From Nitrospirota bacterium (GTDB lineage Bacteria > Nitrospirota > Thermodesulfovibrionia > Thermodesulfovibrionales > SM23-35): a DNA stretch of 64,000 nt. The position numbers were made by a program, and so were the translations under genes. Below, in pieces: positions 20,175 to 55,468 of the stretch. The stretch lies in NCBI GenBank assembly GCA_963796125.1, contig CAWCKM010000018.1:1951-65950 (forward strand). The letters are read 5' to 3'. Below the pieces are notes generated by a model that did no database searches, was not told the origin of the DNA, and saw only the letters and a program-made list of their open reading frames with translations. The number at the start of each line of letters is the position of its first letter. Positions within the stretch are counted from its first letter, which is position 1.

Positions 20175-20179
20175 AACAC

Positions 20180-23852: not shown

Positions 23853-25314
<1,462 letters not shown>

Positions 25315-25396
25315 GAACAGTCATTTGTCAACAGTCAATAGTTGATAGTCAAAAAAACACCCTCACAATAGAAACTCATTGAAGAAGAATTGAGCA

Positions 25397-26941: not shown

Positions 26942-26986
26942 AACGTAATGCGTTATGAGTAACGTGTTAACAAGTTAGATACGCTA

Positions 26987-27930
26987 ATGGATATAGAGAC
27001 TTATCTGAAAGAAAAACGTGAACTAATTGATTCTTACCTGGAGTCATATTTCAGTATTCCTGCCGAACCTTCACTCCTCCATGAGGCAATGCGGTATTCC
27101 CTTTTTGCAGGAGGCAAAAGAATCCGCCCTATCCTTGCCCTTTCAGCTTACGAAGCATGTGGAAGAGACCCCAAAAATATTATCCCTTATGCTTCAGCGC
27201 TCGAACTTATACATACCTATTCTCTTATCCATGATGACCTGCCTTCCATGGATAATGACGACCTGAGAAGAGGAAAATCAACAAACCATAAAGTATTCGG
27301 TGAAGCTATTGCCATTCTTGCAGGCGATGCCCTTCTCACAGAGGCATTCTTAATGCTGACGAATAATTCCCTTTTCCCCCCCTTAGTAAAGGGGGAGAGA
27401 GAGGGGTTAAAGGGGGTAAGGGGAGATTACATGATGAAATAAAATCATCCTCCTTATTAAAAGCAATAAGGGAGGTTGCTCTTTCTTCCGGCGTTCACGG
27501 CATGGTAGGAGGTCAGGCCATGGATATTTTGTCAGAGAACTCAAAACCTGATAGAGATACCCTTACCTTTATCCACACTCATAAAACAGCAGCTCTCATA
27601 ACAGCATCTGTGAGAATGGGAGGAATACTTGCTGACAGTGATGTAAATACTTTGAAGGCTCTTACAAAGTATGGAGAAAGAATAGGACTTGCTTTCCAGA
27701 TTACTGACGATATCCTTAATGTTGAAGGCAATACCGAGGAACTTGGAAAAGCGGCAGGTTCAGATGCTAAAATGAAGAAAATGACCTATCCGGCATTTTA
27801 TGGAATTGAGAAGTCACGACAAGAAGCCGAAAATTTAGTCGCAGAGGCGATAGATGCACTTGCTCTATTTTCTTCTGATGCAGACCCATTGAGAGCAATC
27901 GCCCGCTACCTCATACAAAGGAGAGTTTGA
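26987..27930 (+). CDS. ispA: (2E,6E)-farnesyl/geranylgeranyl diphosphate synthase, interrupted by a miniature repeat
   Basis: [17 protein letters not shown] (first DDxxD) and FQITDDILN (second). The two halves (26987..27442 and 27502..27930) are in different frames on either side of the repeat at 27368-27428. Confidence 0.88.
27368..27428. repeat. C/G-run hairpin repeat inserted in ispA
   Basis: TTCCCTTTTCCCCCCCCTTAGTAAAGGGGGAGAGAGAGGGGTTAAAGGGGGTAAGGGGAGATT. Confidence 0.7.
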
Positions 27931-29813: not shown

Positions 29814-30595
29814 AGGAAAGATTGGATAAAATTCTCGTCTCAAGAGGGCTTGTAAAATCCAGGGAATTAGCAAAGGCTTTCATTATGGAGGGAAAGGTCT
29901 TTGTGGAGGGCAATAAGATAACAAAGGCCGGTACCCTTGTCAGCGATACTGCAGAGATATCCCTCAGAGAAGGAGTCATGCCTTACGTCAGCAGGGGGGG
30001 CATCAAGCTTGAGGCGGCTATTGATTTCTTCAGCATCGACGTCACCGGGAAGATTATTATGGATGTTGGTTCAGGGACAGGTGGATTTACAGACTGTTTA
30101 CTGAAAAAAGGAGCACAGAAAGTTTACTGCATAGATGTAGGATATGGACAGCTTGCATGGCCTTTGAGAAAAGATCAGAGAGTTGTGCTTATGGAAAGAC
30201 TGAATGTAAGATATCTCGACAGAATAATCCGGGATCAGGAGCAAAGGTTCATGGGTACTGAGTTTGAAGATCTTAGGAAAAGTAATATTGATATGGTCAC
30301 GATGGATGTTTCTTTTATTTCCCTGACCAAGGTAATGCCTGCAGTTCTCGGATGTATCAAGGCAGAAGGTAGAATACTTGCCCTTGTAAAACCTCAGTTT
30401 GAGGTAGGGAAAGGAGAGGTAGGGAAAGGTGGTATTGTAAGAGAAGAAGAAAAGAGATTGAAAGCTGTTGAAAACATCCGGAAAGAGTTAGAAGGCCTCA
30501 GCCTGAGAACAATGGGAGTCTTTCAATCTCCTTTGCCTGGAAGGAGTGGTAACATAGAATACTTTTTATATATGACGAAACATACATGCAAATAG
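29810..30595 (+). CDS. tlyA: TlyA-family rRNA (cytidine-2'-O)-methyltransferase
   Basis: S4-like N-terminus (RLDKILVSRGLVKSRELAKAFI), PYVSRGGIKL, and the SAM motif DVGSGTGGFTD. The ispA-dxs-tlyA order is conserved. Confidence 0.85.
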   Translation: MKERLDKILVSRGLVKSRELAKAFIMEGKVFVEGNKITKAGTLVSDTAEISLREGVMPYVSRGGIKLEAAIDFFSIDVTGKIIMDVGSGTGGFTDCLLKKGAQKVYCIDVGYGQLAWPLRKDQRVVLMERLNVRYLDRIIRDQEQRFMGTEFEDLRKSNIDMVTMDVSFISLTKVMPAVLGCIKAEGRILALVKPQFEVGKGEVGKGGIVREEEKRLKAVENIRKELEGLSLRTMGVFQSPLPGRSGNIEYFLYMTKHTCK

Positions 30596-30631
30596 CTACT
30601 AAGAATCATAATTATGACGACATTGTTAAAT

Positions 30632-30731
30632 AAATCCCTCTAACCTCCCTTTGTCAAGGCAGGCAATATCCCTCTCTTTGGCAAAGATTCTCGCGGCGAG
30701 AGGGGAGATTCCAGACAAGCTGGATATGACA
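30632..30731. repeat. composite miniature repeat (C/G-run hairpins + ...ATGACA end)
   Basis: AAATCCCTCTAACCTCCCTTTGTCAAGG...CCCTCTCTTTGGCAAAGA...GAGGGGAGATTCCAGACAAGCTGGATATGACA. Confidence 0.6.
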
Positions 30732-30779
30732 GACACTTACTTCATAGACTAAAATAGGTTAAAAGTACAGGAGTTTGAA

Positions 30780-31454
30780 ATGGAAGAACAAAAACTTCTC
30801 GGAATAGATTTTTCGACTGCATCGCAAGAGTTAATTGAGGTTATCATTGAGGAATCCGAAGATCCATCAGTATTCACTGAAATCGCAAAAGCAAATATGA
30901 AAAGGCCTGAGATACTTAAGCTGCTCTTAGAAAGCCCTGATGTACCCGAAGAGGCAAGAAATCTTATAAGCGACACTTTACAGGTCCCTGTAGCATTCCA
31001 CGCAGAGGTTCCAAAGGTAAGGAAAACACCCGAGATGCGTTCACTGACACTCCTTCAGAGGATCCAGAGACTGAGTTTTGGCGAGAAGAGGCTCCTCGCT
31101 TTGAGAGGCGGAAAGGAAGTACGTTCCATTCTTATAAAAGATCCCAATAAAGAGATTGTGCTTGCTGTTTTAGACAACCCTAAAATCACGGAAACAGAAA
31201 TCGAGATCATAACAAAGTCACGGTCTGTGCCAGAGGAAGTCTTAAGAAAAATAATAAGGAAAAGAGAATGGATGAAAAACTATGTAATTGTCCTTTCTGT
31301 TGTTTCAAATCCGAAGACGCCAGCCGGCAATGCTGTGCCCCTTCTCAGTGAACTGAAAACAAAAGACCTCTCGATACTCACAAAAAGTAAAAATATCTCT
31401 GAAGCTGTCCGTGCCGCTTCAAAAAGACTTCTTCAAGCGAGAAAGGGCACTTGA
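30780..31454 (+). CDS. hypothetical protein (helical-repeat-like)
   Basis: 224-aa intact ORF. I recognise no catalytic motif. Confidence 0.4.
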   Translation: MEEQKLLGIDFSTASQELIEVIIEESEDPSVFTEIAKANMKRPEILKLLLESPDVPEEARNLISDTLQVPVAFHAEVPKVRKTPEMRSLTLLQRIQRLSFGEKRLLALRGGKEVRSILIKDPNKEIVLAVLDNPKITETEIEIITKSRSVPEEVLRKIIRKREWMKNYVIVLSVVSNPKTPAGNAVPLLSELKTKDLSILTKSKNISEAVRAASKRLLQARKGT

Positions 31455-31535
31455 AACCTGTTGCAATTTTTTCTTAGATACCTTTAAATAAAATCCAAAC
31501 AATTGTGTAAATGCCGGCAACATTAAAGGACCATT

Positions 31536-32700
31536 ATGCTGAGAACGTTCAAAGTAGAGAGACTCCATGCAAGCCTTATCCCTGAATCTACTCTGTTTAA
31601 GGTACTAAAATACCTTGATAGAGAAAAGATAGAAACACCCTTCCTTCTTATTGACAGTGACACAGTCCGGGAAAAAGTATCCCTCATTGGACAGCATATT
31701 AAGGACTCAAAGGTATTTTATGCTGTGAAGGCAAACCCTGACAGAAAGATCCTCAGATTCCTGAACGATCTTAACCTGGGTTTTGAAATATCCTCTGAGG
31801 GAGAACTGGAAATACTTGCGTCCCTCGGTGTAGGGCCCGAAAGGATTATATCAAGCAACCCTGTAAAATCTCTCAAGTTTTTGCGTCTGGCTTCCTCCTA
31901 CGGAATCAATTATTTTTCATATGATTCTGAAGACGAGATAGAAAAACTCTCAAACTATGCTCCTCACTGCAATGTGTATGTAAGGCTTTCCGTACCGAAC
32001 GAAGGCAGCGAGTGGCCCCTGAGCAAAAAGTTCGGCGTAGAACTCGATGAGGCTGCAGCTCTTCTGTCTGCTGCAAAAGAAAAAGGACTCAATCCGGTAG
32101 GAATTACTTTTCATGTTGGCTCTCAGTGCACAAATATTTACAACTGGCATATTGCCCTTGACAAGGCAAGGGCTTTGTGGGGTAAAGCCGAGAAGAATGG
32201 TATAAAACTGACCCTTCTTAATATCGGCGGCGGTTATCCGATAAATTACACAAAACATGTGATCAGTATCGATGCAATCGAGAAACAGGTAAACAACCTT
32301 ATTTATGACTATATTCCCTGAAGACGTTGAAATACATATCGAACCAGGCAGAGCAGTGGTTGGAGATGCCGGCGTATTGGTTACAACAGTAATTGGAAAA
32401 GCCTCCAGATCGGATGAAGACTGGCTTTATATAGACGTAGGCGTTTTTAACGGTCTGATGGAGAGCGTCGGTGGCATAACATACAGCTACATTGTAGAAA
32501 GCTATAAACATGCAAGGTCTAAAAAGAGATGGACACTGGCAGGTCCGAGCTGTGACAGCTTCGATGTGATAGATAAAAATGTAGCTCTCCCGGAACCGAA
32601 CATTGGAAATCTGATTCTCATATTATCAAGTGGTGCCTATACTATATCCTATGCTTCGGAATTCAATGGCTTTTCAATACCAAAAACTATACTGATATAA
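31536..32700 (+). CDS. type III PLP-dependent decarboxylase (Orn/DAP/Arg / carboxynorspermidine decarboxylase family), one frame break
   Basis: FYAVKANPD (PLP lysine), HVGSQ, GGGYP, EPGRAVVGDAG. The break is near 32300. Sits next to two speE genes. Confidence 0.8.
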
Positions 32701-32715
32701 GGAAAGGATGAAACA

Positions 32716-33555
32716 ATGATTAAATTTTTTGAAAAAGCACCATATGCGCCGGTGGAGTACTCCTATGACGTGGAAGAGATCCTTTACAGGGGTAAGAGTA
32801 AGTTTCAGGAAATTAAGGTTATCAGAAACCCGCATTTCGGCAGGATGCTCATCCTTGACGATGTTGTCCAGATTACTGAAAGGGACGAGTTTTTTTACCA
32901 TGAGATGCTCACCCATATCGTCATGCATGCCCATCCGTGTCCAAAGAAGGTAATCGTGATTGGTGGTGGAGACGGAGGAGTTGTGAGAGAAGTGCTCAAG
33001 CATAAAACAGTTGAAAAAGTCTATTTCGTGGAGATAGATGAGGAAGTAATCAACGTTTCAAGGAGATTCTTCCCCGGTGTTGCTTCAGGCGTTGATGATC
33101 CGCGTGTAGAGATAAAAATTATGGACGGAGCGGATTTTGTATTAAAAAGGCAACACGCAGATATAGATGCAGTTATCATTGATTCTACAGATATTATCGG
33201 GTTTGCACGAAGTCTTTTCACGGGAGATTTTTTTACTTCTGTCAAACAGTGTCTTACGAATGATGGCATGTTCGTTACACACACGGAATCGCTCCATTTT
33301 CATAAAGATATGGTTATTGAAATCCAGGAAGTGCTTAAATCCGTCTTCCCTTTGGTCGATCTGTATACTGCTCCTCTTGCAACGTATCCGGGAAACTGGT
33401 GGGTCTTTGCTGTCGCATCAAAAGGTCTCTCGCCGCGTGAGGCAAGACATGACCCGGAGATAATAACAAAATTTTACGATGGAGAAATCCACCGGCAGTC
33501 TTTTATGACAAAAGGTTTGTATGAGAAACTGATGCAGAGAAAGCTTGCATGGTAG
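32716..33555 (+). CDS. speE: spermidine synthase / aminopropyltransferase
   Basis: FQEIKVI....GRMLILDDVVQ.TERDEFFYHEML.H, GGGDGGVVREVLKH and DSTD. Confidence 0.88.
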   Translation: MIKFFEKAPYAPVEYSYDVEEILYRGKSKFQEIKVIRNPHFGRMLILDDVVQITERDEFFYHEMLTHIVMHAHPCPKKVIVIGGGDGGVVREVLKHKTVEKVYFVEIDEEVINVSRRFFPGVASGVDDPRVEIKIMDGADFVLKRQHADIDAVIIDSTDIIGFARSLFTGDFFTSVKQCLTNDGMFVTHTESLHFHKDMVIEIQEVLKSVFPLVDLYTAPLATYPGNWWVFAVASKGLSPREARHDPEIITKFYDGEIHRQSFMTKGLYEKLMQRKLAW

Positions 33556-34405
33556 GAAATTGTCAATTCCAAGCAACAAAAATAACTGGTTCATTGACAA
33601 AGACAGCAGACACAGATGGATATATCACAGGATAAAAAAGCATGTTTTATCAGTTAAGACAAGGTTCCAACAGGTAGAATTCATTGATACTTATGAGCTT
33701 GGACGTCTTGTTGTTCTCGACAACAAAATACAGTCTGCTGAAGCAGATGAGTTTATCTACCATGAAACCCTTGTACATCCTGCTATGATCGCACACCCGG
33801 ACCCGAAGATTGTTCTGATTCTCGGCGGAGGTGAGGGAGCAACTCTCAGAGAGGTTCTGAGACATGGAACAGTTGAAAAAGTCGTCATGGTAGATATTGA
33901 TGAAGAGTTTGTAAGCTTATGCAAAAAACATCTCAGGAACTGGCACCATGGTTCTTTCAACGACAAGCGGGTCGAATTAATTTTCGCCGATGCAAAGGAA
34001 TACATCAGTAACAGCACGCCATTCTTTGATGTTATCATCGCCGACATAAGTGATCCTTTTGAAAAAGGGCCGGCTCAGGAACTATATACCATGAAATTCT
34101 ACTCGGATATAAAAAAGGCTCTCAAGACCACCGGTATCTTTGTGACTCATGTAACAGGTGTTTTCTATACTTCAGGCAGATATCGCTATATGGATATTTT
34201 AAAAACGCTCAATGATATTTTTCCTCTCACACATTTTTATTATGAATATATTCCTAGTTATAGCTCTCTGTGGGGATTTGCCGCTTGCTCTCAAAAATAC
34301 AGCCCCCGAAAGATTTCTCCTGATACGGTATATAAGAGGTTAAAAAAGAGGAATCTCGATTCCCTCTCCTACTATGATAAAGAAACACATACAAAACTTT
34401 TCTAA
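33545..34405 (+). CDS. second spermidine-synthase-family aminopropyltransferase paralogue
   Basis: FQQVEFIDT..LGRLVVLDNKIQSAEADEFIYHETLVH, GGGEGATLREVLRH and ADISDP. Confidence 0.85.
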   Translation: MHGRKLSIPSNKNNWFIDKDSRHRWIYHRIKKHVLSVKTRFQQVEFIDTYELGRLVVLDNKIQSAEADEFIYHETLVHPAMIAHPDPKIVLILGGGEGATLREVLRHGTVEKVVMVDIDEEFVSLCKKHLRNWHHGSFNDKRVELIFADAKEYISNSTPFFDVIIADISDPFEKGPAQELYTMKFYSDIKKALKTTGIFVTHVTGVFYTSGRYRYMDILKTLNDIFPLTHFYYEYIPSYSSLWGFAACSQKYSPRKISPDTVYKRLKKRNLDSLSYYDKETHTKLF

Positions 34406-34843: not shown

Positions 34844-36469
34844 TCAGCTTGAATTGCAGTAAAGAGCGGCTTGTGCTTTAGCGGTGTCGCAAGTCAGGAG
34901 AGTTTGCAGAAATTCTCTTGGATGCCGACCCTGTCGCATGGCGGTAAGCAGAAGACTGGGCAAGATGCTGTGTGTCCTTAATCCACTTTCAGAGCGTGTT
35001 CCGAACATGATTTTACGAAAGATCACAAGAAAACGGATTGATTGTTCTGCCTGATTGTTTGTTGGCTGCACACCGGGATGTCGAAGGAAAGTGAACAAAT
35101 GCTTTTGATCCTTTCCGATAAGTGAAGCTCTTAAAGTTTCAGCAGGATTGTAACTGAGCTTGCAGGCACAAAGCTTTTTAAGATCCGAAACGAATTGTTT
35201 TTCGATAAGAGACGCTTGATTCCATTGAAGGGTACCGGAGAGAAGTTCCTGTCCTACCGCGCAAGCCTCTGAGAAAAAAGTAGCGATTTTATCACAAAAG
35301 GCTTCTGCCTTTTTATCACGGGCTGCATCCTCTATGAGCAGAAGCTCCCGGGTAATTTCTTTGGCTTTAGTCATGAGATGGCCCAAACATGACTGCCGCG
35401 CTTTCGCATTGGCGCCGTTATATGCGGCATAACGATCGGCAACCAGAACCCCGCCGAAATCTGATCCGAGGATGGATTGTGCCACTTCCGTTGACCGATG
35501 CCGGTCAATCTGGAAGAACGCCAGATCGGTATTGCCCGCATACCATGCAAAATGGCCTATGCCGTCATTTCGCCATGAAGTTTCATCTGCATGAATGACA
35601 GCGGAAGCCTTGATCTTCTCTCGCAAATCTTCATAAATCGCCGCACCCTTTACCGCTGCTTGTCGGTCAAACCCCACAGCAGAGGCTGGCACAAATTGCA
35701 GGCCGAATAAATCCCTGAAAACCTCCTGGACTTTTCTATATGTCATGCCCATTCGATACCGCAAATAGATAGCAGCAGACTTCGCAACCGGTCCGATAGG
35801 GGCATTGAGAAGCTCATCTTCTGCCGCTTGAACAACAGGCCGGTTACAATGACCGCAAAATGCCTCACGATGCAGGTATCGGGTAACAAAGGGGCGGGGC
35901 TGAAGGACAATATCTTCCTGAAGATGTTCCTTAACACCCTTAATCGGCGTGAGATTGTGGGATTGGCAATGGGGACAAATCCTCGGGGCGGGTACTTCCA
36001 CGGTTTGGTCCACATGTATGGGTTTGTATCTAAACCATCCCGAATGGCCAACCGGAGCGCCACGCCTCTTCTTCCCCCCATCTACTGGTGTTGAGGCATT
36101 CTCTGCATCCCTGCCGTTTTCATCAGTATCTTTCTTTTTGTTTGCCTTAAATTGCCTCCGATGTAAAGCAGTATTCTTAGCCTTCAATTCCGCATTTTCC
36201 TTCTCCAGTGCCTGGATTCGTTTCAGTGCAGTATTCAACTCATCGCCCATTGTATCTATGATCCTCAGATGTTCTTGGTACGTTTCACCGGCACGTCGAT
36301 ACTCACCCAAAACCCACGTCGTGGACAGCCAATCCAAATAAGGACAGTTATGCTCATAAGGACAGGTAAAGTCAGGCGGTGGATAAGAGGGGCGAGGCAT
36401 ACTCCTTATTCGTTCTCCAGGTTTAGAATCTCCCAGTTGACCTTGGAGAGTTTCTGCATGAGTAGCCAC
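34844..36469 (-). CDS. IS66-family transposase (TnpC-like)
   Basis: Leucine-zipper region (LKRIQALEKENAELKAKNTAL), zinc-finger CPHCQS, and DDE-region blocks HADETSWR and ADRYAAYN. The likely true start is the ATG at 36400 (MPRPSY...), preceded by AAGGAG. Confidence 0.85.
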   Translation of the reverse strand: MATHAETLQGQLGDSKPGERIRSMPRPSYPPPDFTCPYEHNCPYLDWLSTTWVLGEYRRAGETYQEHLRIIDTMGDELNTALKRIQALEKENAELKAKNTALHRRQFKANKKKDTDENGRDAENASTPVDGGKKRRGAPVGHSGWFRYKPIHVDQTVEVPAPRICPHCQSHNLTPIKGVKEHLQEDIVLQPRPFVTRYLHREAFCGHCNRPVVQAAEDELLNAPIGPVAKSAAIYLRYRMGMTYRKVQEVFRDLFGLQFVPASAVGFDRQAAVKGAAIYEDLREKIKASAVIHADETSWRNDGIGHFAWYAGNTDLAFFQIDRHRSTEVAQSILGSDFGGVLVADRYAAYNGANAKARQSCLGHLMTKAKEITRELLLIEDAARDKKAEAFCDKIATFFSEACAVGQELLSGTLQWNQASLIEKQFVSDLKKLCACKLSYNPAETLRASLIGKDQKHLFTFLRHPGVQPTNNQAEQSIRFLVIFRKIMFGTRSESGLRTHSILPSLLLTAMRQGRHPREFLQTLLTCDTAKAQAALYCNSS

Positions 36470-37409: not shown

Positions 37410-39108
37410 TTAAAGATCACGAAAAGCCTCAATAATTGTTTCCAGGCTTTCGTCGCACACGGAACATAGATGTTCAAAATGCTTACGAAAGCTACCATAA
37501 TCTTGTAATGCTTGCTTTCTCACTATTTCTGCTTCGCTTCCAGAAGCATGGCCTTTCAATATGGAGCGTAAGTTATGGATTTCATGGAAGGGTGACATGA
37601 GTTGGTGCGCATGTTCAGCCTCAAAGCCCACAGCAATGAGACATTCTTCAGTAAGTTTTAGAGCTCTTAACTTTATGTCAGGATTTCTGCCAAGCTCTTT
37701 TGCTCTCTTGCGCAACCATTTTTCATCTAAACCCTCAACCACGAGTTGATCGAGATTCAATATTTCCTCCGCCCATTCATCACGAGAAGAGGTATATGGA
37801 TAGTGGACTGTCTTAGGCGCATCTTCGTCCCTTAGAGTCCACCAGCCGACTTTTGCGCGATGTAGCTTGTCAAGCTTATTCTTTAGGCTATAAAGTGCGT
37901 CGTATCCTTCATAAAATTGGCCATCAAAGTCAGTGGTAATTGCTCTTTCAGAAAGTGGCGCTTTGGGCTTTTCATTATATTGTTTCCAATGAAGCTGTTC
38001 TTCGTAAGGAAGATGACTCAAATATATTAGATAGGTATGGACTTGACCTGCTGCATTGACATCGAACGTTTTTAAATGCCATGCGCCACGGCAACCAACT
38101 GATCGACTTTCTAAATGGTATTTTGCCCTATCGCTCTTGTATTTTAACAAGACTTCGGGCTTAAAAAATGCGGGGTTATCTCGAAAGGAAGATCTGACTT
38201 AGTAAAATAATTAGATAACCATGCAGGGTCACATGATATTTCAGCAATCTTTTTATTTTTCCAATCATATGCAATAAACGTTGCGTACTGCTTTGCCTCT
38301 TTGGATTCAGGCTTACCCCACATATTATTTATTATTTTATCCTTTGGAATGCTGATTTTCTTGACCTGAAATCCTCTTGAGTAGCTCCCATAACTCTCGG
38401 AGACTACCAAGCTTCCAAAAATGTTATTCTTACCATCAAATTGTATCGGAGCATTTCGAGAACCCCAGCCGGAAAAACTACCTGATTTATATCGTGTGAA
38501 ATCAAACATACGAACTAATAACATTTTACTTACACTGGTGTACTCTCCAAAGATGTCTTTCTTAATTGTAATAACTGTGCCCGTTTCATTATTCGGCAGC
38601 CTATTTATCTCTATGATTTTTACGATGTCTTCAAAATCGCCAAATCTGTCAAGTCTACACCAAGCACTACGTTCGGACATGAAGTGAATCCCTAATACAT
38701 GAGATATTTTCTGTTCCAACTCAAAGTACAGCTTCTTAGATTCAACCCCTTCAAAAGAGCGACCAAATAATATCGGCTCCCCCTTACTCAGGGTTTTACT
38801 TCCAGCATGAGCAAGGGGTCCTTCAATCCAAGCTTCATCTGAAGAGCATGTTATCCCCCAAGTGGAAAATGGATTATGACTCCAGCCTTGAAGATCATCG
38901 ACGGTTGAGTCATCAATCGCAACCTCCGGTATCAGAACAGCATGAATAAAAATGTGTCGTAAGGATGCATAGATAATAATGTTTTCATCCTCTATTTCTT
39001 TTTCAAGAAAAGGTAGCACATCCTCCTGTCTAACCCAGCTGTGAGGGCGTCTTCCTGTGCTGGTTCTTTGTCAAGCGATAAAATTATTTTGAAGTCGTAT
39101 AGGTTCAT
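37410..39108 (-). CDS. large orphan cassette protein (about 565 aa if two frame breaks are repaired) with an R-x5-H (HEPN-like) C-terminal motif
   Basis: Track ORFs 38144..39019 and 37410..38150 overlap by 7 nt (FLSPKSC* / MLKYKSDRAKY). A further N-terminal piece (MNLYDFKIILSLDKEPAQEDALTAGLDRR) starts at the ATG at 39108 in a third frame. The C-terminus contains FHEIHNLRSILKGHASG. Confidence 0.55.
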
Positions 39109-39154
39109 CACTCATTCAATGTTTCCGCAAATCTTCACACACGGCACACCGATT

Positions 39155-39194
39155 AACAATGAGTTAAGCGGGTTCCCCGCTTGAACGATTGGTT
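39155..39194. other. attC-like recombination-site candidate
   Basis: AACAATGAGTTAAGCGGG-ttc-CCCGCTTGAACGATTGGTT followed by GAAA. Confidence 0.6.
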
Positions 39195-39223
39195 GAAAGC
39201 TCATTCTCCCATTCCCAGTCACT

Positions 39224-39878
39224 TTAAGTTGGCAACGTCCCCAACAGACCCGTCCCGAAGTATTTACTCGTTCTGTTCCTCGACCACAATGCGACGAGGT
39301 TCACGTAGTCAATAAAGGTTAGTTCATCGGGGATTAATCGGCTTTGGCTGCATAACCTGCCAAATTCCTTCTTGAACTTTTTGAAACGTTGGTAGATGAT
39401 GCTTCCACTGGGAATTGTCTTTCGTTTGGACGAAGTTTGTAGCCAGTCTCTTATTTCCGTGACAAGTAATTGATGATTGTTCTTGTGTGTGCGAATATCC
39501 ATTCCTGATATATCAGACAACATCTTTTGGTACCTATATGGATAGCGATCGAGAACTAAACAAACCTTTCTGTTCTGTATTTCTTTGCCAAACCGTTTAG
39601 CACCGAAGAATAAGCCCAGTTCAAATGGCATATTAAATCGAGGTAATTTGCTTTTGGAATCAAGTTCAGTCCTGGAAATATCATGTATTCCGTATTTGCA
39701 TGTTGAGATTCTTTACTTCATTAATCTTTTCCAAGCGAAACTGGCTTGCATCGTTGGTCTCCTTGGAGCAACGTGGAACAAAGCCGGAATCTAACACAAC
39801 AAAAATAGCAGCATCAAATAAAGATTTATAACCTTCGTCGAACGGACAGTTGATAAATACTTGATCGTCGTATCTCAT
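39224..39878 (-). CDS. TIR- / nucleoside 2-deoxyribosyltransferase-like protein (one frame break)
   Basis: Track ORFs 39681..39878 (MRYDDQVFINCPFDEGYKSLFDAAIFVVLDSGFVPRC) and 39224..39631 (MPFELGLFFGAKRFG...VCLVLDR..YRYQKMLSDISGMDI). The alternating beta-strand/helix pattern with a conserved Glu after a strand resembles TIR/NDT flavodoxin-like folds. Its start ATG overlaps the upstream stop (ATGA at 39875-39878). Confidence 0.5.
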
Positions 39879-40522
39879 TTTTTGCGCGTTGTCATAGCTG
39901 ATTTAGATAATATGTCAATCAGATTCTTCGTTGAACTTGCAGATTTCTGCATGTCGGATAATGACTTTAGCAAGGTTGAAGGTAGCTTGCACGCCTGTTG
40001 GGTCTTCCGCATTTCTTCAAGAAGTGAACCCATCTTAGATGAGGTTTTCTGCGTTTCAGCCAATGTCTTTAGTAAGGATTCTGGCGGCTTGCATGCCTCT
40101 TGAGCCTTCCGCATTTCTTCAAGAAGTGCACCCGCCTTAGATGAGGCTTTCTGTGCCATCTGCATTTGTTGAATTATTGTATTCGTCGGCTGTAATAAAT
40201 CCTTAGTTGCACTTATGGAAGCAAGTGTTTTATCAATATTTGACGCCTCTTTCTGGATTTCAGTAAATGTCTTTAGTAAGGATTCTGGCGGCTTGTACGC
40301 CTCTTGAGCCTTCCGCATTTCTTCAAGAAGTGTGCCCGCCTTAGATGAGGCTTTCTGCGTTTCAGCCAATGTCTTTAGTAAGGATTTTGGCGGCTTGTAT
40401 GTCTCTTGAGCCTTCCGCATTTCTTCAAGAAGTGTGCCCGCCTTAGATGAGGCTTTCTGCGTTTCAGCCAATGTCTTTAGTAAGGATTCTGGCGGCTTGC
40501 ATGCTTCTTGATTTTTGCGCAC
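39875..40522 (-). CDS. tandem 34-aa helical-repeat protein
   Basis: Units of KPPESLLKTLAETQKASSKAGTLLEEMRKAQEA(C/Y). A probable N-terminal extension runs to the ATG at 40602 (MNRTKSMIKQLVEARKDNRS) through one frame change near 40540. Confidence 0.65.
   Translation of the reverse strand: MRKNQEACKPPESLLKTLAETQKASSKAGTLLEEMRKAQETYKPPKSLLKTLAETQKASSKAGTLLEEMRKAQEAYKPPESLLKTFTEIQKEASNIDKTLASISATKDLLQPTNTIIQQMQMAQKASSKAGALLEEMRKAQEACKPPESLLKTLAETQKTSSKMGSLLEEMRKTQQACKLPSTLLKSLSDMQKSASSTKNLIDILSKSAMTTRKK
39963..40520. repeat. 102-bp tandem repeat array (about 5.5 units) inside the CDS
   Basis: The unit register recurs at 39963, 40065, (40167, divergent), 40269, 40371 and 40473. Units at 40269, 40371 and 40473 differ by only a few bases. 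Confidence 0.9.
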
Positions 40523-40598
40523 TTCTTCAAGTAAGGCTTCTACGAACGATTATCTTTACGTGCTTCAACAAGTTGTTTTATCATAGACTTTGTTCTGT

Positions 40599-40712
40599 TC
40601 ATTGTTGATAGGACTTCCGGACTTTTGGAGGCGGCAAAAGATCTGATAATTCAGCGAGAGAAAAAAGCCCCTTTTTGGGATGATACTTAATAGTTCGCTT
40701 TTTCTCACTCAT
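40599..40712 (-). CDS. 37-aa basic ORF at the head of the cassette
   Basis: MSEKKRTIKYHPKKGLFSLAELSDLLPPPKVRKSYQQ. Its TGA overlaps the next ATG (ATGA at 40599-40602). It is below the ORF-track size cutoff. Confidence 0.35.
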   Translation of the reverse strand: MSEKKRTIKYHPKKGLFSLAELSDLLPPPKVRKSYQQ

Positions 40713-40843
40713 GTGATAATCTCCTATCTGCGTTACTATTTCTGCTTACTAACAGCATTAGTATCCCAATTTTACCACGTATGTTGCCGAATAGACGCTT
40801 AAGTGATATCGTTTTACCATCAAAATAATTCATTAGTGCGTAC

Positions 40844-40895
40844 AACGGCCTAAGCTCAGCGGCGGCTAACAGCCGTCCGCTGGAGTTGGCTAGTT
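40844..40895. other. attC-like recombination-site candidate
   Basis: AACGGCCTAAGCTCAGCGGCGG-ctaaca-GCCGTCCGCTGGAGTTGGCTAGTT. Same AAC...CAGCGG / CCGCTG...GTT layout with bulges. It starts 5 nt beyond the stop of the gene at 40901. Confidence 0.5.
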
Positions 40896-40900
40896 CGGCT

Positions 40901-41699
40901 TTAGATTATCTTATTAAGATCAACATCAAGCCCAGCGGCTCGTAGTTCTCGCCCGAGAAGAAGTCGCCATCCGCCAGACTTATCTAAGGGAACAAATACG
41001 ACACCGTCATAATCCGAAGGAATTTCCACTCCTTCTTCATATAAAGCGCACACACGATCCCGTCCGATTCGCCCCAGGAAGAAACTCGAGCTCAAGGATA
41101 ACGTTCTGCCTTGCACGTGGTTTATATGCATCGGGTAAATCGTCGGTTTTCCCTCCCCGGTCGTCAGCCGTCAAGATGATAACGGAATACCCCACGTCTG
41201 AGTAATCGATGAATTTCTCAATTATTGTTTTTCCTCTGTTTGGCTGTTCGTGCAGTATTATAGGATCAAGCCCAATCTGTCTTATCAGGCGTGCAACAGA
41301 TTCACGTGCAGCTTCATTATGCCCATGTACTATAAAAACTTTATTGGATGATGCAGGATTCTTTTCCTCTCGCTGTCCAAGATTTTCTCCTGTATCCGGC
41401 CAATACTCTTGCACTTCGTCAATCATAGATTGAAGAAGCGCATCCGCACTTGCTTTTCCATTAACAAAAGCTTGCGCGAAAGCAGGTTCAGGATTCATCA
41501 TATTGTACGACCCAGGAGTAAAACTGACGCCTCGGAAATCGCGAATATGACGAGTGTCTTTCCCAAAAAGATGTTCGAGCGAGACGTCTGTATCTCGCCG
41601 CCATTTCTTAAAAGCGGGGTCTTTGGTTGCACTTGCAGATAGTCCCCGGAGCACTTCCAAACGCTCCTTTAGCTTCTCAATTATCTTTTGTTTTTCCAT
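40901..41699 (-). CDS. COG4271-type TIR-like nucleotide-binding protein with a unique N-terminal domain (one frame break)
   Basis: VFIVHGHNEAARESVARLIRQIGLDPIILHEQPNRGKTIIEKFIDYSDVGYSVIILTADD...RARQNVILELEF in ORF 41037..41699. It continues as FFLGRIGRDRVCALYEEGVEIPSDYDGVVFVPLD in ORF 40901..41131. Confidence 0.65.
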
Positions 41700-42022: not shown

Positions 42023-43072
42023 TTCAACAATGAAGTGCAACACTTGGGAGAGCAGAAAAGGAGATGCTATCCTAAGTGTCTATGCCAAAGAACTACAAAC
42101 ATATTACCATGGACGAAAGAGAACTCATAGCTAAAATGAACTGGGAGGGTAAGGGGCTGAACGAGATCGCCAGTGCCCTTGCCCGGGACAAAGGAACCAT
42201 CTCACGGGAACTCAAACGAAACGCCTCTTCTGAATACAGATGCTACACCCCGTGTCGAGCGCAATACCGAGCCGATGAACGGAGGAAAACGGCAAGTAGG
42301 CGTCCCCGGCTTAAGAACGAGACAGTCCGTCAGTATGTACTGGAGAAACTTGCCATAGGATGGTCTCCCGAACTGACAGCCGGAAGACTTCCATTGGAGC
42401 ATCCTGGTTTTTCAATCAGCTATGAGGCGATCTACCAGTATATCTATCACCCAAAGACAGCAGAGCGTGAGGAACTGATCGCTTCTCTGCGCCGTTGTCA
42501 TCGGAAGCGCATGCACAAGAGCATAGGTCGAAAAGTACGTAAAACCAAGATTCCCAATCGGGTGCCGATTGATGTCAGGCCGAAATCAGTTGAATCCAGA
42601 CATTACTATGGTCATTGGGAAGGCGATAGTCTCATATCCCGGAAAAGCCTTGCTGCCTTAAACAGTCTCACAGAGAGAAAAAGCAGGCTGCTATTGCTTA
42701 CCAAACTGAAGCGCAAGGGTGCAGAGGAAACAAAGGATGCCATCATCAGACGGTTATATGCACTCCCTGCCTCAATGAGAAGGACACTTACCCTCGATAA
42801 CGGGACCGAGAACGCCCAGCATGAAGAGATTACTTCAGAGATTGGTCTGAAGTGCTATTTTGCCCATCCCTATGCCTCATGGCAGCGAGGAACTAATGAG
42901 CACATTAATGGTCTTGTTCGATGGTATTTGCCAAAGGGTACGGATTTCAGTAAGATTTCAGAGGAGCAGATTGCTCAGATAGAATCATTGATCAACAATC
43001 GCCCCAGAAAGTGTCTGGGGTTTAAAACACCACTTGAAGTCGCTTCTTCTTGTGTTGCACTTCGAGATTGAA
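42023..43072 (+). mobile_element. IS30-family insertion sequence (1050 bp)
   Basis: Terminal inverted repeats are TTCAACAATGAAGTGCAACAC (42023-) and GTGTTGCACTTCGAGATTGAA (-43072); 17 of 21 positions match. One transposase ORF lies inside. Confidence 0.85.
42076..43071 (+). CDS. IS30-family transposase
   Basis: HTH N-terminus (GLNEIASALARDKGTISRELKRN) and DDE blocks HWEGDSL, TLDNGTENAQH, YFAHPYASWQRGTNEHINGLVRWYLPKG. Confidence 0.9.
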   Translation: MSMPKNYKHITMDERELIAKMNWEGKGLNEIASALARDKGTISRELKRNASSEYRCYTPCRAQYRADERRKTASRRPRLKNETVRQYVLEKLAIGWSPELTAGRLPLEHPGFSISYEAIYQYIYHPKTAEREELIASLRRCHRKRMHKSIGRKVRKTKIPNRVPIDVRPKSVESRHYYGHWEGDSLISRKSLAALNSLTERKSRLLLLTKLKRKGAEETKDAIIRRLYALPASMRRTLTLDNGTENAQHEEITSEIGLKCYFAHPYASWQRGTNEHINGLVRWYLPKGTDFSKISEEQIAQIESLINNRPRKCLGFKTPLEVASSCVALRD

Positions 43073-44513: not shown

Positions 44514-45959
44514 TTACCCCTTTATCACCCCAATCGGTCTGAGCCTTGCTACCTTTTTCGAAATGCCTGCCTTATGAACTACATCGACGACATTTGAGAT
44601 ATCCTTATATGCCTCGGACATTTCTTCTGCAAGGGTTTCCCGGCCGGCAGACTTGACAATAATTCCCTTGTCTTCCATTTCACGCCATATGGAGCGGCCT
44701 TTTGCCTTCCTTATTGCCTGATGCCTTGACATCACCCTTCCAGCACCATGACAGGTAGAGCCAAAAGTCTCCTTCATTGCCTTCTCAGTCCCGAGAAGGA
44801 CGAAAGATACCCTTCCCATATCACCGGGGATCAAGACAGGCTGGCCAAGGGATCTATAAATTTCAGGTAGTTCTGGATGGCCTGGAGGGAATGCCCTTGT
44901 CGCACCCTTTCTATGAACTACCAGCTTCATCTTCTTGCCATTCACTTCATGCTCTTCTACCTTTGCAATGTTATGGGCAACATCGTAAATAAGGCTCATG
45001 CCGAGTTCTCTCGGTGAAATATTGAAAATATTCATAAAGGATTCTTTTGCCCAGTGCATGATACACTGCCTGTTCGCCCAGGCATAATTGGCCGCAGCCC
45101 TCATGGCAGCAAGGTAATCCTGTGCCTCAGAGCTTGCATAAGGTGCACAGGCAAGTTCTTTGTCAAGAAGTACTATCTTATATTTGATAGCCGCACGTTC
45201 CATGACCTCAAGAAAGTCTGTGCATACCTGATGTCCAAAACCCCGGGAACCTGTATGAATCATTACAGTAATTTGGTCCCTGAAAAGTCCGAGGATGTTT
45301 GCGGCCTGCTCATCATAGATCTCATCAACATACTGAACCTCGAGAAAGTGATTGCCGGAGCCCAGGGTACCCTGTTGTGCCCTTCCCCTCTCGTATGCCT
45401 TCCGGCTTATCAGGGATGGATCAGCCCCTTCAATATATCCACCGGATTCTATTTTTTTCAGGTCTTCAGCGCTCCCGAACCCCTGTTCTACTGCCCATTT
45501 TGCACCATAGAGAAGGATCTTCTTTTCATCATCAGGGCCAAGCCGTATTTTCCCCTTTGAGCCGACTCCTGATGGAACCTCATTGTAAAGGACATTAACT
45601 AAATCCTTTATTTTCGGCAAGACCTTATCTTTTGTTAAGTTGCTTTTTAAAAGGCGGACTCCACAGTTGATATCGTAGCCAACACCACCGGGAGAGACGA
45701 TCCCCTCTTTGAGGTCAAAAGCGGCAACGCCTCCAATGGAAAACCCATAGCCCGTATGTACATCAGGCATTGCAAGAGATGCGCCGATAATTCCCGGTAA
45801 TGTAGCAACATTTGCCACCTGGTCTATTGACTGGTACTCAAGTTCTTTCTCAAGAAGGTCATCAACATAAATAATACCCTTAACCCTCATGCCCTGCTTG
45901 TAATCGGAGGGGACTTCTATCTTTGTGTCATCAATTCTTTTGAGTTTTTCAAGTGGCAT
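44514..45959 (-). CDS. rtcB: RNA-splicing ligase RtcB
   Basis: GYDINCGVR, GSGNHFLEVQ, HTGSRGFGHQV, CHGAGR. Confidence 0.93.
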   Translation of the reverse strand: MPLEKLKRIDDTKIEVPSDYKQGMRVKGIIYVDDLLEKELEYQSIDQVANVATLPGIIGASLAMPDVHTGYGFSIGGVAAFDLKEGIVSPGGVGYDINCGVRLLKSNLTKDKVLPKIKDLVNVLYNEVPSGVGSKGKIRLGPDDEKKILLYGAKWAVEQGFGSAEDLKKIESGGYIEGADPSLISRKAYERGRAQQGTLGSGNHFLEVQYVDEIYDEQAANILGLFRDQITVMIHTGSRGFGHQVCTDFLEVMERAAIKYKIVLLDKELACAPYASSEAQDYLAAMRAAANYAWANRQCIMHWAKESFMNIFNISPRELGMSLIYDVAHNIAKVEEHEVNGKKMKLVVHRKGATRAFPPGHPELPEIYRSLGQPVLIPGDMGRVSFVLLGTEKAMKETFGSTCHGAGRVMSRHQAIRKAKGRSIWREMEDKGIIVKSAGRETLAEEMSEAYKDISNVVDVVHKAGISKKVARLRPIGVIKG

Positions 45960-55214: not shown

Positions 55215-55356
55215 TTCTTTCCTCCCTAGTAGATTTTAAGATACAATTCAATTGTTACAATTATGTTACAATTCTGTTAAATTTCTGTTACATATCTCAC
55301 CTCCCTACCAGCGACTTACTCATATAAACGTAAGAAATAATGTATAGAGGGTTCGT

Positions 55357-55468
55357 AAAATCCCCCTCAATCCCCCTTTTCCAAAGGGGGAGATTTCCTT
55401 GGATTCCCCTCTTTGGCAAAAAGGGGTTTGTTCCCTCCCTTTGGCAAAGGGAGGTTAGGAGGGATTTT
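55357..55468. repeat. archetypal triple-hairpin C/G-run repeat
   Basis: AAAATCCCCCTCAATCCCCCTTTTCCAAAGGGGGAG...TTCCCCTCTTTGGCAAAAAGGGG...CCCTCCCTTTGGCAAAGGGAGGTTAGGAGGGATTTT. The termini are inverted copies of each other. Confidence 0.75.

What the first reader, a model, noticed from the sequence alone, without database searches (positions are those of the whole stretch)
39224..40712. Translationally coupled three-gene cassette: 37-aa ORF, 34-aa tandem-repeat protein and TIR/NDT-like protein (candidate undescribed defence module)
One cassette, bounded by the attC-like sites at 40844 and 39155, carries three minus-strand ORFs chained by ATGA stop/start overlaps at 40599-40602 and 39875-39878.

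- The first ORF is a basic 37-aa peptide.
- The second is almost entirely 34-aa helix-turn-helix-like repeats.
- The third (split by one frame break) starts VFINCPFDEGY...FVVLDSGFVP and contains NMPFELGLFFGAKRFG. Buried strands followed by a conserved Glu are what I associate with TIR / nucleoside 2-deoxyribosyltransferase-type folds, which act as NAD- or nucleotide-cleaving effectors in known defence systems.

I do not know this combination as a named system. It may be a repeat-protein sensor or scaffold paired with a TIR-like effector.
Basis: inference. Interest (0 to 1): 0.8.

Follow-up and report, generated by a model that had tools for sequence, protein, structure and literature searches.

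The report
Two-gene TIR-like module with docking motif
What looked like three coupled genes is really a two-gene unit (a helical-repeat protein with a short conserved docking motif, then a TIR-like enzyme) belonging to a widespread family that matches no model in Pfam, NCBIfam or PADLOC, and this copy is interrupted by four frame breaks in a sequence that has many such breaks.

Summary
The ORFs, the 102-nt (34-aa) tandem repeat and both ATGA overlaps are present, but the gene count is wrong. Homologues P0126 and P0127 carry the "37-aa ORF" sequence and the helical repeats in one protein. So ORF1 and ORF2 are one gene, split by a -1 shift in a T-run. Only the overlap at 39875-39878 is a real, conserved gene junction. 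There are four frame breaks, not two.

The last gene belongs to a family of about 205-aa proteins with 3312 database hits across many phyla. It has no Pfam, NCBIfam or PADLOC model. An AlphaFold model (pLDDT 85.5) best matches SPARTA and STING TIR domains, then MilB, DNPH1 and NDT. Its invariant Glu aligns with the ELG motif of Cap12/PycTIR-type TIR domains.

The conserved partner element is not the repeats. This motif lies next to the TIR-like gene in 63/80 genome loci and 35/72 metagenome loci. It is fused to varied domains: repeats, TPR, DUF2188, a DncV-like nucleotidyltransferase, or a second TIR.

The cassette lies between attC-like sites, beside a PDC-S35 cassette, with no integrase found. 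Housekeeping genes in the window are also frameshifted, so the breaks may be assembly errors.

My best reading is a modular TIR-like effector with a docking-motif regulator. Its function is inferred, not shown.

The parts
39875..40712 (-). Gene A: partner protein with an N-terminal docking motif followed by a helical tandem-repeat array, about 279 aa once repaired.
   Evidence: Six-frame translation. A one-T repair reads through. Single-ORF homologues P0126 and P0127. The C-terminal 58 aa are conserved in L001.
40635..40703 (-).
   Evidence: An HMM built from 33 independent upstream ORFs scores it 13.3 bits, against a maximum of 8.5 in 2000 shuffles. The motif lies next to the TIR-like gene in 63/80 and 35/72 loci.
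40636..40639 (-). Frame break 1: a T-run one base short. It creates the apparent ORF1 stop and the spurious ATGA junction at 40602-40599.
40541..40548 (-). Frame break 2 (-1), at the start of the first repeat.
39985..40531 (-). 102-nt (34-aa) tandem repeat array, 5.4 copies. The unit is KPPESLLKTLAETQKASSKAGTLLEEMRKAQEA(C/Y).
   Evidence: Autocorrelation peaks at lags 34 and 68, with a weak peak at lag 17.
39875..39878 (-). Real ATGA stop/start overlap between gene A and gene B.
   Evidence: Conserved in L001 as AAAAAATGA. Overlapping junctions are also seen in L082, L013 and L042.
39264..39878 (-). Gene B: TIR-like (Cap12/PycTIR-like) protein, about 204 aa once repaired. Invariant residues include N10, P12, D14, H65, D66, S68, P79-R80-F81-N82 and E86; R36, C37, E40 and R69 are invariant in one alignment (A1) and at least 90% conserved in the other (A2).
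   Evidence: 3312 homologues. Alignments A1 and A2. AlphaFold pLDDT 85.5. Foldseek. hhalign to the neighbouring PF10137 domain.
39710..39716 (-). Frame break 3: 4 extra nt (AAAG) relative to L001, inside helix alpha2 of gene B.
   Evidence: DNA alignment. Protein alignment shows a one-column insertion only in the window sequence.
39281..39286 (-). Frame break 4 (-1), just after the conserved Trp. It replaces the C-terminus WLEEQNE* with an unrelated 20-aa tail that ends at 39224.
39151..39198 (-). attC-like site at the 3' end of the cassette: TTTCAAC-CAATC-GTTCAAG...CTTAAC-TCATT-GTTAATC. It has the 7-5-7 / 7-5-7 layout with two unpaired bases.
   Evidence: A 95% identical copy lies at 37346-37300. 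Conservation stops exactly at AAC...GTT.
40840..40899 (-). attC-like site that closes the upstream cassette and opens this one.
   Evidence: 52-nt AAC...GTT hairpin, -23.5 to -27.7 kcal/mol.
40710..40725 (-). Shine-Dalgarno sequence AGGAG, 8 nt upstream of the gene A ATG.
   Evidence: Sequence reading. No promoter signal above chance.

Best explanation
**What it is.** The locus is one copy of a widespread, unnamed two-gene module.
- Gene B encodes an enzyme of about 205 aa. Its core has a TIR/flavodoxin-like fold of the Cap12/PycTIR type, followed by a three-helix C-terminal extension.
- Its conserved pocket (FINCPFD, PRCxxE, GIHDISR, PRFNMPFELG) points to N-glycosidic cleavage of NAD+ or a nucleotide.
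- Gene A encodes a partner. Its only family-wide conserved part is a strand-plus-helix motif of about 25 aa: [KR]x[VI]KxxPxxGx[VIL]xxxx[IV]xxAV.

**How I think it works.**
- I infer that the motif docks the partner onto the enzyme and controls its activity or oligomerisation.
- The variable region fused to the motif would supply sensing, scaffolding or signal generation. Here that region is 34-aa helical repeats. Elsewhere it is TPR, DUF2188, a DncV-like nucleotidyltransferase, a second TIR, or nothing.
- The likely outcome is growth arrest or abortive infection through NAD+ or nucleotide depletion.

**Setting in this window.**
- The module lies between attC-like sites, next to a PDC-S35 cassette.
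- Its two genes carry four frame breaks. These may be assembly errors.

**Shown versus inferred.**
- Shown: gene structure, fold class, conservation, and adjacency of the motif to the enzyme gene.
- Inferred: the docking role, the substrate, and the defence role.
For: - Gene fusion of ORF1 and ORF2.
- Pairing of the repeat protein with the TIR-like gene in independent contigs.
- Family size and breadth: 3312 proteins, and 586 of 600 matched stretches in the scanned species genomes across many phyla.
- Fold: pLDDT 85.5, pTM 0.85; SPARTA TIR E 6e-5, SfSTING, MilB, DNPH1, NDT.
- Weak but consistent PF10137, PADLOC TIR-effector and NCBIfam Cap12 hits.
- E86 aligned to the ELG of a genuine PF10137 domain.
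- Motif statistics:
  - 13.3 bits against at most 8.5 in 2000 shuffles;
  - 47 upstream and 16 downstream of 80 loci, with about 4 hits elsewhere in 631 kb;
  - 35 of 72 loci, with 0 hits elsewhere.
- Variable fusions: (DncV-like NTase 30.7 bits, TPR, DUF2188, PF10137).
- Defence-type setting: the neighbouring cassette is PDC-S35, E 2.4e-86.
- Integron cassettes are known stores of defence systems (references cited in 10.64898/2026.03.17.712381).
- DUF2188 has been linked to defence operons (10.1101/2022.04.27.489752 and 10.64898/2025.12.03.692087).
Against: - No enzymatic or phage assay exists for any member.
- Pfam PF10137 scores stay below the gathering threshold (17.9 against 24.7 bits).
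- Flanking genes of 80 homologues are mostly housekeeping. Only about 10% are defence-like.
- Conservation is very high across phyla: mean column identity is 54% in A2 (57% in A1), and the listed hits are 50-58% identical to the query. That is unusual for fast-evolving immune genes.
- No complex was modelled, so docking is conjecture.
- The repeat array has almost no detectable homologues: 11 weak hits in 1.84 billion representatives.
- This copy cannot make either full-length protein as sequenced.
Confidence: 0.5

Rival explanations
1. Type II toxin-antitoxin-like addiction module. The TIR-like enzyme is the toxin. The small basic motif protein is the antitoxin, and its conserved segment neutralises the toxin. 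The module would persist as a selfish stabiliser of cassette arrays and genomic islands.
For: - A small upstream gene overlaps or abuts the enzyme gene.
- The minimal partners are only 43-80 aa and very basic.
- The module occurs as scattered single insertions among housekeeping genes. One sits between the aconitase large and small subunit genes.
- Some genomes carry several copies, for example two in OZ246979.1.
- The window copy lies in an attC-bounded cassette. From general knowledge, TA pairs are common in such cassettes.
Against: - Partners fused to 13 TPRs, a DncV-like nucleotidyltransferase, a 600-aa domain or a second TIR are unlike known antitoxins.
- No recognised DNA-binding antitoxin domain was found.
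- Gene order is reversed in 16 Poribacteria loci.
Confidence: 0.25
2. A non-conflict nucleotide-metabolism enzyme, such as an NDT/DNPH1/MilB-like N-glycosidase acting on a modified nucleotide, together with a small nucleic-acid-binding accessory protein.
For: - Foldseek also matches MilB, DNPH1 and nucleoside 2-deoxyribosyltransferases.
- Sequence conservation across phyla is unusually high.
- Neighbours are mostly housekeeping genes.
- Many partners have lysine/alanine-rich, histone-like tails.
Against: - The best structural and profile matches are immune TIR domains, not NDT.
- The family is patchy in distribution, multi-copy and cassette-borne.
- The partner's variable domains include immune-type parts: a DncV-like NTase, a second PF10137 TIR, and DUF2188.
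- No PF05014 (NDT) hit was found.
Confidence: 0.12
3. This copy is a decayed, non-functional cassette. The four frame breaks are real mutations in a relic kept in an integrase-less attC array between insertion sequences.
For: - There are four breaks in 1.5 kb. One is a +4-nt insertion, which is not a simple homopolymer error.
- The neighbouring PDC-S35 gene is also frameshifted.
- The IS30-like ORF lacks a detectable DDE domain.
- No integrase was found.
- The break density is about 4-5 times my rough estimate for the rest of the window.
Against: - Single-base frame breaks also split housekeeping genes in the same window: guaB, guaA, dxs, ispA-like, and an Orn/Arg decarboxylase.
- The breaks in guaB and guaA sit at short base runs. 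That points to general indel errors in the assembly.
- No in-frame stop codons appear after repair.
Confidence: 0.35
4. One reading: three separate, translationally coupled genes (a 37-aa peptide, a repeat protein and a TIR-like protein).
For: - The ATGA at 40602-40599 exists.
- Motif-only partners of 43-50 aa exist elsewhere, in L054 and L030.
Against: - The frame upstream of ATG 40602 is open. It aligns without gaps to P0127 across the supposed gene boundary.
- A single added T restores one ORF.
- P0126, P0127, L013 and L042 all have the motif and the repeats in one protein.
Confidence: 0.05

Closest known systems
Cap12 / PycTIR-type TIR effector domains (Pfam PF10137) of CBASS and Pycsar
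   Same: - Same fold class.
- Same R-x-N-x-x-x-E-L-G-x-F-x-G motif, with the conserved Glu aligned.
- Weak PF10137, PADLOC TIR-effector and NCBIfam Cap12 hits.
- In Poribacteria the partner carries a DncV-like nucleotidyltransferase domain, which echoes CBASS.
   Different: - Scores stay below the Pfam gathering threshold.
- There is no cyclic-nucleotide sensor domain (STING, cNMP-binding) on the enzyme. It has a private three-helix C-terminal extension instead.
- There is no cyclase in the window or in most loci.
- The constant partner is a docking motif of about 25 aa that is absent from CBASS and Pycsar.
SPARTA TIR-APAZ and TIR-STING (solved TIR NADase effectors)
   Same: They are the best structural matches: Foldseek E 6e-5 to 4e-3, TM about 0.5 over about 165 residues.
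   Different: - Sequence identity is 11-20%.
- There is no APAZ, Argonaute or STING partner.
- The activation logic is unknown.
PDC-S35 (PADLOC candidate single-gene defence system) in the adjacent cassette
   Same: It is also built on a PF10137-type TIR domain, and it is also cassette-borne in the same array.
   Different: - PDC-S35 is a single gene with its own N-terminal domain.
- The module studied here gets no PADLOC system hit and has a separate partner gene.
BcTir/BcTpr two-gene TIR plus TPR anti-phage system (bioRxiv 10.1101/2023.05.26.542521)
   Same: - Both are two-gene operons that pair a TIR-type protein with a helical-repeat protein.
- In BcTir/BcTpr, repeat number is reported to tune NADase output.
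- One relative of the present family (L011) has a genuine 13-TPR partner.
   Different: - In BcTir/BcTpr the glycosidase sits on the TPR protein itself.
- The window repeats give no TPR Pfam hit.
- No docking motif is described there.
- Homology was not tested.
Nucleoside 2-deoxyribosyltransferase / DNPH1 / MilB N-glycosidases
   Same: - Related flavodoxin-like fold.
- A Glu at the start of the helix after a glycine-rich turn.
- Foldseek E 5e-3 to 2e-2.
   Different: - Weaker matches than to TIR domains.
- No PF05014 hit.
- Different conserved residues (HDISR, RCxxE).
Integron gene cassettes carrying defence systems
   Same: - The unit is bounded by AAC...GTT imperfect palindromes with the R''-5-L''...L'-5-R' layout.
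- All sites have the same orientation as the genes.
- Neighbouring cassettes share near-identical sites.
   Different: - No IntI was found in the scanned ORFs.
- The array is flanked by IS66 and IS30-like genes.
- The sites are short (48-60 nt) and were called by eye, not by IntegronFinder or HattCI.

Membership tests
Pfam PF10137 CAP12/PycTIR TIR domain | Score at or above the Pfam gathering threshold (24.7 bits) | tested here: not met
   17.7-17.9 bits, E 0.003-0.004. 31 of 40 family members give sub-threshold hits; the best is E 2.4e-4.
TIR / flavodoxin-like fold superfamily | Parallel beta-sheet alpha/beta core that superposes on solved TIR domains | tested here: met
   AlphaFold model at pLDDT 85.5. 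Foldseek against the PDB: SPARTA TIR E 6e-5, probability 1.0, TM about 0.53.
TIR / Cap12-type NADase | Conserved glutamate in the x-E-L-G motif at the start of the central helix | tested here: met
   E86 is invariant in 40 and 64 sequences. It aligns to the ELG of the neighbouring genuine PF10137 domain. That this Glu is catalytic is my inference from general knowledge.
TIR / Cap12-type NADase | NAD+ (or nucleotide) cleavage activity | not testable with these tools
   It needs biochemistry.
CBASS / Pycsar | A CD-NTase or cyclase gene in the operon, and a nucleotide-sensor domain on the effector | tested here: not met
   There is no cyclase or NTase in the window cassette. No sensor domain was found on the enzyme. 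Only the Poribacteria relatives L003 and L012 have a DncV-like NTase domain on the partner.
Thoeris | A ThsB-type TIR together with a ThsA-type (or other described) effector gene | tested here: not met
   PADLOC gives no Ths hits for either gene.
Nucleoside 2-deoxyribosyltransferase (PF05014) / DNPH1 | Profile match and fold match | tested here: inconclusive
   No Pfam hit. The fold matches are only secondary: E 5e-3 to 2e-2.
TPR repeat proteins | 34-aa repeats matching TPR profiles | tested here: not met
   The period is 34 aa, but there is no TPR Pfam hit. The only repeat-family hit is a non-significant PPR_2 match at E 0.21. The AlphaFold model has low confidence.
Integron cassette (CALIN-type array) | An attC site (R''-L''...L'-R', AAC...GTT) at the 3' end of the cassette, with at least 2 sites in one orientation within a few kb | tested here: inconclusive
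   Four candidate sites with the canonical layout were found by inspection and folding. No dedicated attC model was available.
Complete integron | An IntI tyrosine recombinase adjacent to the array | tested here: not met
   No Phage_integrase hit in about 40 window ORFs scanned. The upstream ORF is IS30-like (HTH_38).
Type II toxin-antitoxin | A small gene coupled to a toxin gene, an antitoxin with a DNA-binding domain, and toxicity relieved by the partner | tested here: inconclusive
   Coupling and small size are met. No known antitoxin domain was found. Toxicity is not testable here.

The most novel reading that the evidence does not exclude
This would be a previously unnamed, phylum-spanning class of modular conflict systems. 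A dedicated TIR-like N-glycosidase is wired to interchangeable input proteins through a strand-helix docking motif of about 25 aa. The inputs include helical-repeat arrays, TPR, DUF2188, a DncV-like nucleotidyltransferase and a second TIR. The motif would act as a plug-and-socket adaptor for bacterial TIR effectors. The units move as integron-type cassettes and as small insertions, even inside housekeeping operons.
Probability: 0.35. Interest if true: 0.75.

Novelty: new variant of a known kind. Interest (0 to 1): 0.58.

Why it matters
- TIR-fold NADases are central effectors of bacterial, plant and animal immunity. How they are switched on is the main open question for each new system.
- If the docking motif really couples many different sensor or signal-generating domains to one conserved enzyme, it would be a compact and experimentally tractable example of modular effector control.
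- It would also add a widespread family to defence or toxin catalogues that currently miss it. The family has more than 3300 protein clusters and is found in Poribacteria, Planctomycetota, Acidobacteriota, Verrucomicrobiota, Cyanobacteria and others.
- For annotation, the case shows that a 'small ORF with an ATGA overlap' can be a frameshift artefact in an error-prone assembly.

Tried and rejected
- **Word-indexed homologue search with the repeat protein.** It collected 8000 candidates and none was significant. This was probably saturated by low-complexity words. The exhaustive search then found only 11 weak hits.
- **PDB sequence search with the family profile.** No hits even at E 10.
- **Strict attC scans.** One used regex plus folding and one used arm alignment. 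Both missed the sites because of their bulges. A relaxed fold scan recovered the site at 40895-40844 and a candidate at 41885-41808.
- **Test for AAC...GTT hairpins downstream of the 81 fetched loci (80 genome loci plus L001).** There was only a weak excess over controls (Mann-Whitney p 0.009). The top hits were GC-rich folds, not clean attC sites. I do not claim the family is generally cassette-borne.
- **17-aa unit HMM from the L013 and L042 repeats.** It did not score the window repeats above shuffles: -2.1 against a maximum of 5.9. Homology between these repeat arrays is therefore not shown.
- **Promoter and terminator scan.** Nothing above chance.
- **Source organism.** Exact-sequence look-ups gave no name.
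- **Closer relatives in metagenomes.** None was more than 56% identical in the JGI set.
- **Literature searches** (integron + TIR, DUF2188, PF10137). I found no description of this pair. Absence of prior work cannot be proven from this library.
Full report
**1. What is in the sequence**

- A 37-aa ORF runs from 40712 to 40599.
- An ATG at 40602 opens a 20-codon stretch that stops at 40542.
- A 215-aa ORF (40522-39875) is made of 102-nt repeats. TRF gives period 102, 5.4 copies and score 571 (family D1).
- A 65-aa ORF (39878-39681) and a 135-aa ORF (39631-39224) carry VFINCPFDEGY and NMPFELGLFFGAKRFG.
- Both ATGA overlaps are physically present.
- A good Shine-Dalgarno sequence (AGGAG) precedes the first ATG.
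- Promoter and terminator scans show nothing above chance.

**2. Two genes, not three**

An exhaustive HMMER search with the 215-aa ORF found only 11 weak hits in 1.84 billion representatives. Two of them settle the gene count.
- P0126 (131 aa) begins MEQKKRTIKQHPNIGNYSLTELRKII.
- P0127 (133 aa) begins MDKEERKIKYHPGEGAFTTIELADIW.
Both then continue, in the same polypeptide, into helical repeats.

In the window, the frame of the repeat gene is open upstream of ATG 40602 and reads ..SFAASKSPEVLSTMNRTK... Adding one T to the T-run at 40639-40636 gives a continuous protein: MSEKKRTIKYHPKKGLFSLAELSDLFAASKSPEVLSTMNRTKSMIKQLVEARKDNR.... This aligns without gaps to P0127 across the supposed gene boundary.

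L013 (a Syntrophaceae MAG) and L042 (a Pirellulales MAG) also have KRKIKQHP plus tandem repeats in one ORF. The ATGA at 40602-40599 is therefore a by-product of a frameshift. Only the ATGA at 39878-39875 is a true junction, and it is conserved in L001.

**3. Frame breaks**

There are four.
- Break 1: -1 in the T-run at 40639-40636.
- Break 2: -1 at 40548-40541.
- Break 3: +4 nt (AAAG) at 39716-39710 relative to L001.
- Break 4: -1 just after TGG 39286-39284. This hides the homologous C-terminus WLEEQNE* (stop at 39266-39264) behind an unrelated tail.

Are they real? Housekeeping genes in the same window are split in the same way.
- guaB is split at a GGGGAAAA run.
- guaA is split at a GG.
- GMP_synt_C lies on its own ORF.
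- dxs is in at least three pieces.
- A polyprenyl synthase, an Orn/Arg decarboxylase and an anti-sigma factor are also split.

So the assembly has a general indel problem. I estimate very roughly 0.5 breaks per kb in the 16-34 kb stretch. The cassette has about 2.7 per kb, and one break is a 4-nt insertion. A real decay component therefore cannot be excluded. I put real decay at about 0.35.

**4. The enzyme (gene B)**

- The repaired protein has 3312 hits at E <= 1e-3, nearly all 200-215 aa long. They are annotated 'hypothetical' or 'nucleotide-binding protein' and have no precomputed Pfam domain.
- The nearest hit, P0001 (81% identity), lies on a Logan contig. It is preceded by the C-terminus of the same repeat protein, with the same ATGA overlap.
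Of those 600 matched stretches, 586 were confirmed. They come from Poribacteria (several per genome), Planctomycetota, Acidobacteriota, Thermoanaerobaculia, Verrucomicrobiota, Nitrospirota, Gemmatimonadota, Cyanobacteria, Chlorobiaceae and others.
- Conservation is strong. Mean column identity is 54-57%. Invariant residues include N10, P12, D14, H65, D66, S68, P79-R80-F81-N82 and E86; R36, C37, E40 and R69 are invariant in A1 and at least 90% conserved in A2.
- Family libraries give only sub-threshold hits, all pointing the same way:
  - Pfam PF10137 (Cap12/PycTIR TIR), 17.9 bits against a cutoff of 24.7, seen in 31/40 members;
  - a PADLOC TIR effector model, E 0.005;
  - NCBIfam Cap12, E 0.01.
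- The PDB sequence search was empty.
- An AlphaFold model of P0001 with 64 homologues is confident (pLDDT 85.5, pTM 0.85). It shows a five-stranded alpha/beta core (residues 1-130) plus three C-terminal helices.
- Foldseek against the PDB ranks the TIR domains of SPARTA TIR-APAZ first (E 6e-5 to 1e-3). SfSTING TIR follows, and then MilB, DNPH1 and nucleoside 2-deoxyribosyltransferases.
- hhalign places RFNMPFELGLFFGA on RQNVILELGFFLGR of the genuine PF10137 domain encoded by the neighbouring cassette.

Formal PF10137 membership is not met.

**5. The partner (gene A) and what is really conserved**

- In 47 of 80 genome loci, an ORF that ends within a few tens of nt of the enzyme start carries a shared motif. 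I built an HMM from 33 of these ORFs and summarise the motif as [KR]x[VI]Kx(x)PxxG[ST][VIL]xxxx[IV]xxAVxxV.
- In 16 Poribacteria loci the motif ORF instead starts immediately downstream of the enzyme gene.
- Only about four hits lie anywhere else in 631 kb.
- In 80 further metagenome loci, 35 of the 72 with enough upstream flank have the motif upstream. None has it elsewhere.
- The window's ORF1 scores 13.3 bits against this HMM, against a maximum of 8.5 for 2000 shuffles of its own sequence.

The motif is fused to very different sequences:
- nothing, in 43-50 aa proteins;
- basic K/A/S-rich tails;
- DUF2188 (L008, L016, L043 and others);
- 13 TPRs (L011);
- a DncV-like nucleotidyltransferase domain (L003 and L012; PF21654, 30.7 bits);
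- a second PF10137 TIR (L053);
- a 600-aa unknown region (L006);
- helical tandem repeats (the window, L013, L042, P0126).

The repeats themselves are nearly orphan sequences. A 17-aa unit HMM from L013 and L042 does not recognise the window repeats. The single-sequence AlphaFold model of the 215-aa ORF is unreliable (pLDDT 56). It suggests one long helix per repeat, broken at the KPP sites.

**6. Setting**

The unit is bounded by imperfect AAC...GTT palindromes on the coding strand, at 40899-40840 and 39198-39151.
- The second can be parsed as R''(TTTCAAC)-5-L''(GTTCAAG)-loop-L'(CTTAAC)-5-R'(GTTAATC), with two unpaired bases.
- It recurs at 95% identity at 37346-37300. There, sequence conservation starts and stops exactly at AAC and GTT.
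- A fourth candidate lies at 41889-41804.

This fits the established attC layout, which I apply from general knowledge. I had no dedicated attC model, so I rate it as plausible rather than proven.

No integrase was found in about 40 ORFs scanned. An IS30-like HTH ORF (42076-43071) and an IS66 transposase (34844-36469) flank the array.

The upstream cassette gene, once its own frameshift is repaired, is a full-length match to the PADLOC candidate system PDC-S35 (E 2.4e-86).

Elsewhere the module is scattered. In L082 and L083 it sits between the aconitase large and small subunit genes, followed by a palindrome of about 77 nt. Across 80 loci the nearest neighbours are mostly housekeeping genes. 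Roughly 10% are defence-like: Eco57I-type RM, AbiJ, mad2, Drm and Brx parts.

P0127 is followed by a methyltransferase, not by the enzyme.

**7. Mechanism**

Shown:
- a conserved two-gene unit;
- a TIR-like fold with an invariant ELG glutamate;
- a short motif that travels with the enzyme gene while everything fused to it changes.

Inferred:
- The motif docks the partner to the enzyme, perhaps on the three-helix extension or on a sheet edge.
- The variable part senses or scaffolds.
- The enzyme then cleaves NAD+ or a nucleotide, causing growth arrest.

The main rival is a toxin-antitoxin reading. It is favoured by the small coupled upstream gene, the scattered multi-copy distribution and the cassette location. 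It is disfavoured by the large enzymatic and TPR fusions on the partner. A metabolic N-glycosidase role is less likely but not excluded.

**8. Known or new**

Integron cassettes are established stores of defence systems (works cited in 10.64898/2026.03.17.712381). DUF2188 has been linked to defence operons. A TIR plus TPR two-gene system has been reported, BcTir/BcTpr.

I found no model for this family in Pfam (2025 copy), NCBIfam (2026) or PADLOC (2023). I found no paper describing the enzyme family or the motif. The literature library is incomplete, so this is not proof of novelty.

I classify it as a new variant of a known kind, namely TIR-effector conflict modules. This particular copy is of modest value because it is broken or mis-assembled. 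The family it points to is the interesting part.

Noticed in passing
window 40901-41699 (minus): The adjacent cassette gene is split by a frameshift into 41037-41699 and 40901-41131. Once repaired it is a full-length match to the PADLOC candidate defence system PDC-S35 (E 2.4e-86). It has a genuine PF10137 TIR domain.
   Followed up: partly
window 16494-34405: Many housekeeping genes are split by single-base frame breaks: guaB (23853-24356 / 24163-25314), guaA (25633-26664 / 26657-26941), dxs (28083-29813), a polyprenyl synthase (26987-27930), an Orn/Arg decarboxylase (31536-32700) and an anti-sigma factor (17181-18223). This suggests an indel-prone assembly.
   Followed up: partly
window 37410-39019 (minus): The next cassette holds two ORFs (291 and 246 aa) that overlap by 7 nt. 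They have no Pfam or PADLOC hit. They may be one gene of about 540 aa broken by a frameshift. The cassette ends at the near-identical attC-like site 37346-37300.
   Followed up: no
window 34844-36469 and 42076-43071: An IS66-family transposase and an IS30-like ORF bracket the attC-like array. The IS30-like ORF has HTH_38 and HTH_32 but no DDE domain was detected. No integron integrase was found.
   Followed up: partly
window 20376-20483 and 55327-55456: Long G/C-rich nested palindromes built from CCCTCTTTGGCAAAGAGGGG-like units, resembling REP-type intergenic repeats. They are unrelated to the cassette.
   Followed up: no
L082 2844-3834 (ENA ERZ27247977 k141_855556): The intact pair P0126 plus the TIR-like P0029 is inserted between the aconitase/isopropylmalate-isomerase large and small subunit genes. 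It is followed by an AAC...GTT-type palindrome of about 77 nt. This looks like a cassette at a secondary site.
   Followed up: partly
L003-L019, L023, L029 (Poribacteria MAGs), about 4580-6590: Gene order is reversed here. The motif sits at the N-terminus of the downstream gene and is fused to a DncV-like nucleotidyltransferase, TPR arrays, DUF2188, a possible GIY-YIG-like segment, or a 600-aa unknown domain. L023 has three motif ORFs in a row.
   Followed up: partly
L100 (Ga0247727_10031001), upstream ORF: This partner protein carries two tandem copies of the docking motif (..KRVVKYPPFPSTLGNERIRQAVIEV.. and ..KRVVKDSPLPSVLGKDRIREAV..).
   Followed up: no
L084 689-1671 (Logan SRR28022909): P0127, a motif plus helical protein, is followed with an ATGA overlap by a SAM-methyltransferase-like gene instead of the TIR-like gene. 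The motif is therefore not exclusive to this enzyme.
   Followed up: no
window 44514-45959: An intact RtcB RNA ligase gene (481 aa, full-length PF01139 match) lies just beyond the island.
   Followed up: no
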